DNA from: the human T2T-CHM13v2.0 reference genome, Homo sapiens
Assembly: GCF_009914755.1 (NCBI RefSeq)
Contig: NC_060933.1
DNA length: 64,000 bases
Direction: 5' to 3' (one strand)
A model generated the notes under the pieces. The model made no database searches. It saw only the letters and a list, made by a program, of their open reading frames with translations, and had not been told where the DNA came from. Shown in pieces: positions 16,663 through 51,537 of the stretch. Positions within the stretch are counted from its first letter, which is position 1. Every line of letters starts with the position of its first letter. Position numbers and translations under genes: made by a program.

Positions 16663-16680
16663 AAAAACAAAGGAAAAGGT
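16663..16680 (+). repeat. Left TSD of composite SVA insertion (right copy 20100-20117)
   Basis: Perfect 18-bp match. The left copy starts at AT|AAAAA, an L1 endonuclease-type site. The right copy directly follows the SVA A-tail. Confidence 0.9.
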
Positions 16681-17159
16681 GTTCTAGCCAGTGATGTGAT
16701 TTTGGGAAGGTCTCTCCATCTCCAAAAGGCTCAGTTTTCTGAGCCTTTTAGATCTATTAAATCACTGGAGTAGACTACAGTATATAATGTTCTTAGTCCC
16801 TATTTCTTCTACCTTTTTCTCTCTCTTTTTTTCTTTCTTTCTTTCTTTTTTTTCTTTTCCTTTTTCTTTTTCTTTTTTTTTTGAGACAGGGTTTTGCTAT
16901 GTTGCCCAGGCTGGTCTCAAACCCCTGGGCACAAAGTGATCCTCCTACCTTGGCTTTCCAAAGCGCTGCAATTACAGGCATGAGCCACCATGCCTGGCCT
17001 TTTTCTAATTTTTTTTTTTAATTGAGGTGAAATTCACCAAATATAAAATTAATTATTTTAAAGTTTACAATTCGGGGTATTTAGTTAATTCATAATGTTA
17101 TACCCACCTCTATCTAGTTCGAAAACATTTTCATCACCACAAAAGAAAATCCTGGACTT
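16681..17159 (+). mobile_element. 5' transduced segment co-inserted with the SVA
   Basis: Lies inside the 18-bp direct repeat AAAAACAAAGGAAAAGGT (16663-16680 and 20100-20117). Contains MIR-like sequence, a minus-strand Alu monomer and a minus-strand L1M 3' fragment that stops at the hexamer. Confidence 0.85.
16812..16999 (-). mobile_element. Alu left monomer (FLAM_C/AluJ-like) with T/C-rich tail
   Basis: GAGACAGGGTTTTGCTATGTTGCCCAGGCTGGTCTCAAAC...GCCACCATGCCTGGCC preceded by a long pyrimidine tract. Confidence 0.85.
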
Positions 17160-20099
17160 CCCTCTCCCTCTCCCTCCTCTCCCTCTCCCCACGGTCTCCC
17201 TCTGATGCCGAGCCGAAGCTGGACTGTACTGCTGCCATCTCGGCTCACTGCAACCTCCCTGCCTGATTCTCCTGCCTCAGCCTGCTGAGTGCCTGCGAGT
17301 GCAGGCGCGCGCCGCCACGCCTGACTGGTTTTCGTATTTTTTTGGTGGAGACGGGGTTTCGCTGTGTTGGCCGGGCTGGCCTCCAGCTCCTAACCGCGAG
17401 TGATCCGCCAGCCTCGGCCTCCGGAGGTGCCGGGATTGCAGACAGTGTCTGGTTCACTCAGTGCTCAATGGTGCCCAAGATGGAGTGCAGTGGCGTGATC
17501 TCGGCTCGCTACAACTTCCACCTCCCAGCCGCCTGCCTTGGCCTCCCAAAGTGCCCAGAGTGCAGCCTCTGCCCGGCCGCCACCCCGTCTAGGAAGTGAG
17601 GAGCGTCTCTGCCTGGCCACCCATCATCTGGGATGTTAGGAGCCCCTCTGCCTGGCTGCCCAGTCTGGAAAGTGAGGAGCGTCTCTGCCCGGCCGCCATC
17701 CCATCTAGGAAGTGAGGAGCGCCTCTTCCCGGCCGCCATCCCATCTAGGAAGTGAGGAGCGTCTCTGCCCAGCCGCCCATCGTCTGAGATGTGGGGAGTG
17801 CCTTTGCGCCACCGCCCCGTCTGGGATGTGAGGAGCGCCTCTGCCCGGTCGCGACCCCGTCTGGGAGGTGAGGAGCGTCTCTGCCCAGCCGCCCCATCTG
17901 AGAAGGGAGGAGACCCTCCGCCTGGCAACCGCCCCGTCTGAGAAGTGAGGAGACCCTCCGCCCGGCAGCCGCCCCATCTGAGAAGTGAGGAGCCCCTCCG
18001 CCCGGCAGCCACCCCATCTGGGAAGTGAGGAGCGTCTCTGCCCGGCAGCCGCCCTGTCCAGGAGGGAGGTGGGGGGTCAGCCCCCCGCCCGGCCAGCCGC
18101 CCCGTCCGGGAGGGAGGTGGGGGGGTCAGCCTCCCGCCCGGCCAGTGAGGGGCGCCTCTGCCCAGCTGCCCCTACTGGGAAGTGAGGAGCCCCTCTGCCC
18201 GGCCAGCCACCCTGTCCGGGAGGGAGGTGGGGGGGTCAGCCCCCCGCCCGGCCAGCCGCCCCATCCGGGAGGGAGGTGGGGGGTCAGCCCCCCGCCCGGC
18301 CAGCCGCCCCGTCCGGGAGGTGAGGGGCGCCTCTGCCCGGCCGCCCCTACTGGGAAGTGAGGAGCCCCTCTGCCCGGCCAGCCGCCCCTTCCGGGAGGGA
18401 GGTTGGGGGGTCAGCCCCCCGCCTGGCCAGTCGCCCAGTCCGGGAGGGAGGTGGGGAGGTCAGCCCCCCGCCCGGCCAGCCGCCCCGTCCGGGAGGGAGG
18501 TGGGGGGGTCAGCCCCCCGCCCGGCCAGCTGCCTCGCCCGGGAGGTGAGGGGCGCCTCTGCCCGGCTGCCCCTACTGGGAAGTGAGGAGCCCCTCTGCCC
18601 GGCCAGCCGCCCCGTCCGGGAGGGAGGTGGGGGGTCAGCCCCCCACCCGGCCAGCCGCCCCGTCTGGGAGGGAGGTGGGGGGGTCAGCCCCCCGCCCGGC
18701 CAGCCGCCCCGTCCGGGAGGTGAGGGGCGCCTCTGCCCAGCTGCCCCTACTGGGAAGTGAGGAGCCCCTCTGCCCGGCCAGCCGCCCCGTCCGGGAGGGA
18801 GGTGGGGGGGTCAGCCCCCCGCCTGGCCAGCCGCCCCATCCGGGAGGGAGGTGGGGGGTCAGCCCCCCGCCCGGCCAGCCGCCCCGTCCGGGAGGGAGGT
18901 GCGGGGGTCAGCCCCCCGCCCGGCCAGCCGCCCCGTCCGGGAGGTGAGGGGCGCCTCTGCCCGGCCGCCCCTCCTGGGAAGTGAGGAGCCCCTCTGCCCG
19001 GCCAGCCGCCCCGTCTGGGAGGGAGGTGGGGGGGTCAGCCCCCCGCCTGGCCAGCCGCCCCATCCGGGAGGGAGGTGGGGGGTCAGCCCCCTGCCCGGCC
19101 AGCCGCCCCGTCCGGGAGGTGAGGGGCGCCTCTGCCCGGCCACCCCTACTGGGAAGTGAGGAGCCCCTCTGCCCGGCCAGCCGCCCCTTCCGGGAGGGAG
19201 GTTGGGGGGTCAGCCCCCCGCCTGGCCAGCCGCCCCGTCCGGGAGGGAGGTGGGGGGGTCAGCCCCCCGCCCGGCCAGCCGCCCCACCTGGGAGGTGAGG
19301 GGCGCCTCTGCCCGGCCGCCCCTACTGGGAAGTGAGGAGCCCCTCTGCCTGGCCAGCCACCCCATCCGGGAGGGAGGTGGGGGGGTCAGCCCCCCGCCTG
19401 GCCAGCCGCCCCATCCGGGAGGGAGGTGGGGGGGTCAGCCCCCCGCCTGGCCAGCCGCCCCACCTGGGAGGTGAGGGGCGCCTCTGCCCGGCCGCCCCTA
19501 CTGGGAAGTGAGGAGCCCCTCTGCCCGGCCACCACCCCGTCTGGGAGGTGTGACCAACAGCCCATTGAGAACGGGCCATGATGACAATGGTGGTTTTGTG
19601 GAATAGAAAGCGGGGAAAGGTGGGGAAAAGATTGAGAAATCGGATGGTTGCCGTGTCTGTGTGGAAAGAAGTAGACATGGGAGACTTTTCATTTTGTTCT
19701 GTACTAAGAAAGATTCTTCTGCCTTGGGATCCTGTTGATCTGTGACCTTAACCCCCAACCCTGTGCTCTCTGAAACATGTGCTGTGTCCACTCAGGGTTA
19801 AATGGATTAAGGGTGGTGCAAGATGTGCTTTGTTAAACAGATGCTTGAAGGCAGCATGCTCGTTAAGAGTCATCACCACTCCCTAATCTCAAGTACCCAG
19901 GGACACAAACACTGCGGAAGGCCGCAGGGTCCTCTGCCTAGGAAAACCAGAGACCTTTGTTCACTTGTTTATCTGCTGACCTTCCCTCCACTATTGTCCT
20001 ATGACCCTGCCAAATCCCTCTCTGTGAGAAACACCCAAGAATGATCAATAAAAATAAAATTAAAAAAAAACAAAAAAATAAACAAACAAACAAAAAAAA
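17160..20099 (+). mobile_element. Full-length SVA retrotransposon (SVA_D-like), antisense to GNAQ
   Basis: Short (CCCTCT)n hexamer at ~17160-17190, Alu-like domain at ~17200-17560, GC-rich VNTR at ~17560-19545, SINE-R (HERV-K-derived) at ~19545-20050, AATAAA at 20047-20052, then an A-rich tail. Confidence 0.97.
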
Positions 20100-20293
20100 A
20101 AAAACAAAGGAAAAGGTAAGTGCCAGAGGCCCAGGAACTGGCTGGAAAAATTTTAAAGGATATGATCTATAAAACATCTCAAGATTGCAATGTGTGTAGT
20201 ATTAAGGTAACCCATGAAAAGGGAGCAGGATTTTAACATCGCTTTGCCTTCCACAACTATTATATGTTGTGATGATAATATTTTTTGTGTAAA

Positions 20294-51387: not shown

Positions 51388-51537
<150 letters not shown>

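What the first reader, a model, noticed from the sequence alone, without database searches (positions are those of the whole stretch)
16663..20117. SVA carrying a 479-bp 5' transduction, revealed by a displaced 18-bp TSD
Seen: the sequence after the SVA A-tail (AAAAACAAAGGAAAAGGT, 20100-20117) has no match next to the hexamer but recurs perfectly at 16663-16680, at an L1-endonuclease-type AT|AAAAA site. Known: L1-mediated insertion duplicates the target around the whole reverse-transcribed RNA, and SVAs transcribed from upstream promoters carry 5' flank with them. Inference: 16681-17159 (MIR-like piece, Alu monomer, L1M fragment) is foreign DNA from a source locus. Ancient-looking repeats here would then be recent arrivals, which a repeat annotation would list as unrelated old elements. 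The hexamer is retained, which favours upstream initiation over splicing into the SVA. I cannot tell whether this transduction group is already catalogued.
Basis: partly seen in the sequence, partly recalled or inferred. Interest (0 to 1): 0.85.

Follow-up and report, generated by a model that had tools for sequence, protein, structure and literature searches.

The report
SVA with 5' transduction in GNAQ
This is an ordinary SVA jumping element in a GNAQ intron that carried about 480 bases of DNA from its parent copy on chromosome 10, a well-known behaviour of SVAs.

Summary
The 18-base duplication is exact at 16663-16680 and 20100-20117. It occurs nowhere else in the window. It encloses 479 non-SVA bases (16681-17159) plus a complete SVA (17160-20099).

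A search of the window's own genome finds the same non-SVA segment at two other places, each joined to an SVA at the identical junction.
- **Chr10 copy (about 120.077-120.079 Mb):** this is the origin. The SVA sits directly inside an old L1M fragment, has its own 14-base duplication, and the L1M resumes after the A-tail.
- **Chr11 copy (about 18.215-18.218 Mb):** this is a sibling offspring. It carries a longer transduction (592 bases) inside its own 15-base duplication.

Both offspring have one extra G at the 5' junction that neither the source nor the target encodes. This fits two capped transcripts started 473 and 583 bases upstream of the chr10 SVA.

The three copies each differ by about 0.6-0.9%, so the events are millions of years old. 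Whether the insertion is human-specific could not be tested.

SVA 5' transduction is textbook (about 10% of SVAs, PMC4859970). Interest is low.

The parts
16663..16680 (+). 5' copy of the 18-base target-site duplication of the GNAQ insertion
   Evidence: Exact match to 20100-20117, with only two matches in the window. It is preceded by AT, giving a TTTT/AT nick site on the bottom strand.
16681..16681 (+). Single untemplated G at the 5' junction
   Evidence: Chr10 and chr11 have C at this column and the 3' flank has A. The reading as a reverse-transcribed cap is inference (cap reading for L1: PMC4859970, passages).
16682..17159 (+). Templated 5' transduction (478 bases) copied from the chr10 flank
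   Evidence: 97% and 96% identity to chr11 and chr10 over query bases 2-479. Outside the microsatellite there are 3 substitutions in 405 sites versus chr10 and 2 in 405 versus chr11.
16682..16806 (+). Low-copy part of the transduced segment
   Evidence: Only 3 places in the whole genome match: chr9, chr10 and chr11 (3 candidates, 3 scored).
16813..16882 (+). T/CT-rich microsatellite, read as the degenerate tail of the antisense Alu monomer
   Evidence: TRF rows 16813-16882 and 16826-16882. It is the only part of the transduction where the three copies differ much, and chr9 and chr11 are more alike there than either is to chr10.
16883..16999 (-). Antisense Alu monomer inside the transduction
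   Evidence: Aligns to the left-monomer half of antisense Alus at five other loci. The family name is recalled.
17020..17159 (+). L1M 3'-end fragment, cut off at the SVA junction
   Evidence: Aligns to five other L1M copies that continue beyond this point. In the window the L1M does not resume after the SVA, whereas at chr10 it does.
17141..17154 (+). Copy of the source element's own 5' target-site duplication, carried inside the transduction
   Evidence: The same 14 bases flank the chr10 SVA on both sides. Source duplications inside transduced sequence are the criterion used in PMC12593883 (passages).
17160..17189 (+). (CCCTCT)n hexamer region of the SVA
   Evidence: Read directly. TRF row 17161-17203.
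17190..17555 (+). Alu-like region of the SVA
   Evidence: Aligned with chr10 and chr11 over 364 ungapped sites, with 6 chr9-private differences.
17556..19562 (+). VNTR, about 2.0 kb, GC 64-82%
   Evidence: TRF arrays 17565-19548 with periods of 37-49 bases and higher-order periods of 175-176, 224 and 351. GC profile. The VNTR is 974 bases in chr10 and 658 bases in chr11.
19563..20052 (+). SINE-R region ending in the AATAAA signal (20047-20052)
   Evidence: All 40 scored genomic matches are 98-100% identical (1,659 first-look candidates). 497 ungapped sites aligned with chr10 and chr11.
20053..20099 (+). A-rich tail, interrupted by T and C
   Evidence: Read directly. TRF row 20050-20108 shows 72% matches.
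20100..20117 (+). 3' copy of the 18-base target-site duplication

Best explanation
Window 16681-20099 is one L1-mediated retrotransposition product. It is a full-length, hexamer-bearing SVA, antisense to GNAQ in intron 5, with a 478-base 5' transduction plus one untemplated G. The transduced DNA comes from the 5' flank of an SVA on chromosome 10 (minus strand, SVA body about 120,076,733-120,078,651 in this assembly). That element lies inside an L1M 3' fragment, next to an antisense Alu monomer. A transcript that began about 473 bases upstream of the chr10 SVA ran through the flank and the SVA to the SVA polyadenylation signal. The L1 machinery then inserted it at a TTTT/AT site in GNAQ, creating the 18-base duplication around the whole RNA copy. 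A second transcript, starting about 583 bases upstream in chr10, produced the chr11 sibling. What is shown: the duplication, the three-member group, the colinearity with chr10, and the structure of the chr10 locus. What is inferred: that the two 5' ends are true transcription starts (from the extra G), that L1 supplied the enzymes, and the order and age of the events.
For: (1) The 18-base duplication is exact and unique in the window. An A-rich tail precedes its 3' copy, and the target reads TTTT/AT.
(2) The flank-to-hexamer junction (28 bases, up to 3 mismatches allowed) occurs at exactly 3 places in the 3.1-Gb genome, on chr9, chr10 and chr11. The reversed control pattern gave 0.
(3) The low-copy 125 bases also occur only at those 3 places.
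(4) At chr10 the same 14 bases flank the SVA directly, and the sequence after the tail continues the L1M as other L1M copies do. The upstream DNA there runs on past both offspring 5' ends.
(5) At chr11 a different 15-base duplication encloses 592 flank bases plus the SVA.
(6) Both offspring have a G at the 5' junction where chr10 has C.
(7) The literature confirms the mechanism is established. About 10% of SVAs carry sequence transduced by upstream initiation (PMC4859970, passages). One study called 1,389 5' transduction events among 7,554 insertions (PMC10681720, passages).
Against: No outgroup or population data were available, so an empty GNAQ site was not seen. The chr10 duplication is exact for only 14 bases. 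Five bases (GACTT) lie between it and the hexamer. If those five are counted, the match is 17 of 19. At SINE-R position 19924 chr9 has G while chr10 and chr11 have T. The 28 other close SVA copies split 14 G to 14 T there, so one extra change or an older chr10 allele must be assumed. In the microsatellite, chr9 resembles chr11 more than chr10. No CpG island or other recognisable promoter lies upstream of the chr10 start sites (CpG observed/expected at most 0.4). A single extra G could also be filler at a truncated 5' end.
Confidence: 0.95

Rival explanations
1. Relay: the GNAQ copy was made from the chr11 offspring, transcribed from inside its own transduced flank, and not directly from chr10.
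For: The chr9 5' end lies inside the segment that chr11 carries. In the CT/T microsatellite, chr9 and chr11 share a layout that chr10 lacks. They also share C where chr10 has T at the end of the Alu monomer. Offspring acting as sources is documented (PMC12593883, passages).
Against: None of the 11 chr11-private substitutions (2 in the Alu-like region, 9 in SINE-R) is present in chr9. The SINE-R states that set chr10 apart are derived: 27 or 28 of 28 other copies disagree with chr10 at each of its 4 private sites. They could therefore have arisen in chr10 after both births. Microsatellites change quickly.
Confidence: 0.2
2. The 5' ends are not transcription starts. Both offspring are 5'-truncated cDNAs of longer read-through transcripts from a distant promoter at chr10.
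For: No promoter-like feature was found just upstream. 5' truncation is common in L1-mediated insertion (PMC4859970, passages).
Against: Both of the two offspring carry exactly one untemplated G at the junction. The cited review reads untemplated G at the 5' end as evidence of a cap for full-length L1 insertions.
Confidence: 0.2
3. DNA-level duplication (segmental duplication or gene conversion) copied flank plus SVA between loci, without an RNA intermediate.
For: None specific, beyond three loci sharing about 2-3 kb.
Against: Each offspring ends in an A-tail right after the SVA signal and is bounded by its own short duplication at an A-rich site. Similarity stops exactly at those points, and the L1M does not continue after the SVA in chr9 or chr11.
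Confidence: 0.01
4. The 18-base repeat is a chance match, and 16681-17159 is resident GNAQ intron DNA into which a plain SVA was inserted.
For: The repeat is A-rich and of low complexity.
Against: 0 of 100 shuffles gave two matches. The segment has two paralogues with the identical SVA junction. No duplication lies beside the hexamer.
Confidence: 0.01

Closest known systems
5'-transducing SVA groups (Damert et al. 2009, Genome Res 19:1992; Hancks et al. 2009, Genome Res 19:1983)
   Same: An SVA RNA started upstream of a source element, carrying 5' flank that ends up inside the offspring's target-site duplication. Several offspring share the flank, with differing 5' ends. Neither paper was held. 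What I say of them comes from citing papers and from recall of the abstract.
   Different: Nothing in kind. This is a small group (one source, two offspring in this genome) with an unspliced, hexamer-retaining transduction made of old repeats. I could not see whether the 2009 inventory lists it.
SVA_F1 (MAST2 exon 1 fused to SVA; source element H10_1 on chr10)
   Same: 5' acquisition of foreign sequence by an SVA lineage, followed by further spread (PMC3287187, passages).
   Different: SVA_F1 arose by splicing and lost the hexamer (PMC3287187; PMC6928650). Here the hexamer and full Alu-like region are kept and the flank is colinear with genomic DNA. I did not compare the two chr10 loci directly. 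The structural differences show only that this is not an SVA_F1 element.
Polymorphic SVA transduction groups in long-read human assemblies (PMC12593883; PMC10681720)
   Same: Same logic of tracing offspring to a source through the transduced sequence, with the source duplication inside it.
   Different: Those sets are non-reference, recent insertions. A search of the two held supplementary files of PMC12593883 for GNAQ and for my estimated coordinate prefixes gave nothing relevant. That fits an old, probably inactive group. The prefixes were estimates, so the miss is weak evidence.

Membership tests
SVA retrotransposon (canonical, full length) | Five parts in order: (CCCTCT)n, Alu-like region, GC-rich VNTR, SINE-R, AATAAA plus A-tail | tested here: met
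   Read directly. VNTR arrays with 37-49-base units. GC up to 82%. For SINE-R, all 40 scored genomic matches are 98-100% identical (1,659 first-look candidates). The order matches the description in PMC6928650 and PMC3287187 (passages).
SVA retrotransposon (canonical, full length) | Assignment to a named subfamily (A-F) by SINE-R diagnostic positions | not testable with these tools
   No repeat library or subfamily reference sequences were available. Only relative similarity to unnamed genomic copies was measured.
L1-mediated (target-primed) insertion | Target-site duplication of 4-20 bases, 3' A-tail, nick site close to TTTT/AA | tested here: met
   18-base exact duplication, A-rich tail, TTTT/AT site. 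Criteria as given in PMC4859970 (passages).
SVA 5' transduction | Non-SVA sequence lies between the 5' duplication and the SVA 5' end | tested here: met
   479 bases at 16681-17159.
SVA 5' transduction | That sequence maps to the 5' flank of another SVA, colinear up to the SVA, with the source's own duplication at its 3' end | tested here: met
   Chr10 locus. The source duplication is 14 exact bases, followed by 5 unmatched bases.
SVA 5' transduction | Empty pre-insertion site in an outgroup or another haplotype | not testable with these tools
   Only this one human assembly is searchable. No ape genomes or pangenome were available.
Transduction group (two or more offspring of one source) | Independent insertions share the transduced sequence but have different target-site duplications | tested here: met
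   Chr9 (18-base duplication) and chr11 (15-base duplication, longer flank).
Spliced 5' acquisition (SVA_F1-like) | Foreign exon joined to an internal SVA splice acceptor, with the hexamer and part of the Alu-like region lost | tested here: not met
   The hexamer and full Alu-like region are present and the flank is contiguous with chr10 genomic DNA.

The most novel reading that the evidence does not exclude
The chr10 flank holds an unannotated promoter with two start sites that once drove germline SVA expression. That promoter was copied into GNAQ intron 5 and into chr11. The GNAQ copy could then start transcripts antisense to GNAQ through an SVA whose VNTR has grown to twice the source's length. 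In addition, the group may be missing from published inventories.
Probability: 0.1. Interest if true: 0.35.

Novelty: already known. Interest (0 to 1): 0.15.

Why it matters
This is a clean worked example. A displaced target-site duplication correctly revealed that 478 bases of 'ancient' repeats (a low-copy piece, an Alu monomer and an L1M end) in a GNAQ intron arrived with an SVA, and are not resident DNA. Repeat tables list these pieces as unrelated old elements, so dating or synteny work on this intron would mis-age them.

The group also gives a lineage marker linking three loci, and two candidate transcription start sites beside the chr10 SVA. None of this changes what is known about SVA biology. 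5' transduction by upstream initiation is established and common.

Tried and rejected
- **Another duplication beside the hexamer:** none. The only similarity is a 10-of-11 partial resemblance separated from the hexamer by 10 bases.
- **Further group members:** the junction pattern and the low-copy 125 bases each gave only chr9, chr10 and chr11.
- **H10_1 as the source:** I wondered whether the chr10 source is the well-known H10_1 element. The text of PMC3287187 shows H10_1 is an SVA_F1 with MAST2 sequence, a structure this hexamer-bearing element does not have. I did not compare coordinates.
- **Papers naming an SVA in GNAQ:** 2 hits, both irrelevant melanoma reviews by title and abstract.
- **The 2009 papers:** the two Genome Research papers that hold the inventory of 5'-transduced SVAs are not held.
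- **Supplements:** the supplements of PMC12593883 gave no relevant row.
- **Promoter at chr10:** I looked for a CpG island and found none.
- **Order of the two births:** polarising shared differences gave a star-like pattern with one ambiguous site, so the order is unresolved.
Full report
**1. Observation**

The 18-base string after the SVA A-tail (20100-20117) recurs exactly at 16663-16680. No other match exists in the 64-kb window, even with two mismatches allowed. Shuffles expect 0.05 matches, and 0 of 100 shuffles gave two or more.

The sequence between the two copies reads as follows:
- 479 non-SVA bases (16681-17159).
- A CCCTCT hexamer run from 17160.
- An Alu-like region.
- A GC-rich VNTR. 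TRF places it at 17565-19548, with 37-49-base units and higher-order periods. GC reaches 82%.
- A SINE-R region ending in AATAAA at 20047-20052.
- An interrupted A-rich tail up to 20099.

The target reads AT before the duplication, so the bottom-strand nick site is TTTT/AT. That variant appears in the table of L1 endonuclease sites in PMC4859970 (passages). The element is on the + strand. GNAQ is on the minus strand, and the site lies downstream of the 130-base exon at 51400-51529. It is therefore antisense in intron 5, as the annotation supplied with the finding implies.

**2. Where the 479 bases come from**

A search of the window's own 3.1-Gb assembly with 16681-17159 gave two near-full-length matches besides itself:
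- chr11:18,215,485-18,215,966 (+), 97% identity, query bases 2-479.
- chr10:120,078,652-120,079,124 (-), 96% identity, query bases 2-479.

All other scored matches were 72-88% Alu or L1M hits starting at query base 123 or later, apart from two short 95-96% Alu-only hits of about 45 bases. Only 40 of 4,413 first-look candidates were scored in that call, so I ran two sharper searches:
- The 28-base flank-to-hexamer junction, with up to 3 mismatches allowed, occurs at exactly three places (chr9, chr10, chr11). The reversed control pattern gave 0.
- The low-copy 125 bases at 16682-16806 also match only those three places (3 candidates, all 3 scored).

In this genome the group therefore has three members.

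**3. Which copy is the source**

I fetched 9-9.5 kb around each paralogue and read the ends.

*Chr10.* The same 14 bases lie just before the hexamer and just after the A-tail. Five extra bases, GACTT, are shared by all three copies and sit between the 5' copy and the hexamer. The sequence after the tail continues the L1M 3' end in the way other L1M copies continue. Upstream, the chr10 DNA runs on without a break beyond the 5' ends of both other copies. This is the structure of an SVA inserted directly into an L1M, with its flank in native context. It is the origin of the transduced DNA.

*Chr11.* A different 15-base duplication (chr11:18,215,359-373 and 18,217,560-574) encloses 592 flank bases plus the SVA and its tail. 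This is a second offspring with a longer transduction.

*GNAQ copy.* The L1M stops at the hexamer and does not resume after the SVA.

Finding the source's own duplication inside the transduced sequence is the confirmation criterion used in PMC12593883 (passages).

**4. The 5' ends**

At the GNAQ 5' junction, base 16681 is G. The source and chr11 have C there, and the 3' flank has A. At the chr11 5' junction there is likewise one G where chr10 has C.

[quoted passage not shown] I infer two capped transcripts that started 473 and 583 bases upstream of the chr10 SVA, at chr10 positions 120,079,124 and 120,079,234 on the minus strand.

This inference is the weakest step. No CpG island lies upstream (observed/expected at most 0.4), and a single filler base at a truncated end cannot be excluded. 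The flank is colinear with chr10 right up to the hexamer, so no splicing was involved.

**5. Relationships and age**

Private substitutions in each copy:

| Region | Sites compared | chr9 | chr10 | chr11 |
|---|---|---|---|---|
| Transduction, outside the T/CT microsatellite | 405 | 2 | 1 | 0 |
| Alu-like region | 364 | 6 | 3 (plus a 2-base deletion) | 2 |
| SINE-R (one further site has three states) | 497 | 2 | 4 | 9 |
| Total | 1,266 | 10 | 8 | 11 |
| Percentage | | 0.79% | 0.63% | 0.87% |

The pairwise counts behind the transduction row are 3 of 405 for chr9 versus chr10, 2 of 405 for chr9 versus chr11, and 1 of 405 for chr10 versus chr11.

I compared these sites with 28 other close SVA copies taken from the 29 non-self loci, leaving out the chr10 source itself. 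The private states are derived, because the other copies agree with the two-copy majority. The exception is position 19924. There chr9 has G, chr10 and chr11 have T, and the others split 14 to 14.

The pattern is star-like. It does not decide whether GNAQ was seeded from chr10 directly or through chr11. In the microsatellite, chr9 and chr11 look alike, but chr9 has none of the 11 chr11-private changes.

With commonly used human substitution rates (my own knowledge, roughly 0.5-1.2 x 10^-9 per site per year, faster at CpG), 0.5-0.9% per lineage means several million years. That is near or before the human-chimpanzee split. The interrupted A-tail agrees with this. An empty site in orangutan or macaque is more likely.

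The VNTR is 2,007 bases here, against 974 in chr10 and 658 in chr11. It contains a 176-base higher-order array with 94% matches at 18813-19548. This suggests local expansion after insertion.

**6. Composition of the transduced segment**

- 16682-16806 is low-copy in this genome. I could not test the 'MIR-like' label.
- 16813-16882 is a T/CT microsatellite.
- 16883-16999 aligns with the left-monomer half of antisense Alus.
- 17020-17159 aligns with L1M 3' ends at five other loci.

The family names are recalled, since no repeat library was on hand.

**7. Comparison with what is known**

SVA 5' transduction by upstream initiation is established:
- About 10% of SVAs carry such sequence (PMC4859970, passages).
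- One survey called 1,389 5' transduction events among 7,554 insertions (PMC10681720, passages).
- Transduction groups and their sources are routinely traced (PMC12593883, abstract and passages).

The founding papers (Damert et al. 2009; Hancks et al. 2009) are not held. From recall of the Damert abstract, it reports a genome-wide inventory of 5'-transduced reference SVAs (about 8% of elements). That inventory very likely includes these reference loci, but I could not check.

The group is not SVA_F1. That lineage lost the hexamer through splicing to MAST2 exon 1 (PMC3287187; PMC6928650). Here the hexamer and Alu-like region are intact.

No paper in the library names an SVA in GNAQ. The search for GNAQ, SVA and retrotransposon together gave 2 irrelevant hits. 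The held supplements of PMC12593883 have no relevant row.

**8. Verdict**

The feature is a correct but ordinary instance of a known mechanism. Its main value is for annotation: old-looking repeats at 16682-17159 arrived with the SVA. It also provides a three-locus lineage marker.

Noticed in passing
window 17556-19562, versus L012 (chr10) and L011 (chr11): The VNTR of the GNAQ copy (2,007 bases) is two to three times longer than in its source (974) and sibling (658). It contains a 176-base higher-order array with 94% matches at 18813-19548, suggesting expansion after insertion.
   Followed up: partly
window 16883-17030; L004-L008 around positions 1470-1860: Five other L1M 3' ends at about 75% identity each carry an antisense Alu whose 5' end abuts the same T-rich stretch just before the same L1M motif. 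The likely cause is repeated use of a TTTT/AA-type nick site in the L1M. The loci were picked because they resemble an Alu-plus-L1M query, so selection bias is large.
   Followed up: partly
L017 (chr4:154.54 Mb), L018 (chr4:162.88 Mb), L020 (chr13:87.18 Mb): Three SVAs without the transduction are as close or closer to the GNAQ SINE-R than the chr10 source is (6-13 differences in about 520 columns, against 98% identity for chr10). They share the same unusual 3' end after the AATAAA signal. They may belong to the same source lineage.
   Followed up: partly
L012 reverse complement 2850-2935 (chr10 source hexamer region): The chr10 element has a 17-base unit at the hexamer/Alu-like border present three times. 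The chr9 and chr11 offspring have it once. This is either expansion at the source after the births or contraction in both offspring.
   Followed up: no
L011 4034-4085 (chr11 sibling, start of SINE-R): Six of the nine chr11-private SINE-R differences cluster in the first 50 bases. This looks more like a short conversion or patch event than independent point changes.
   Followed up: no
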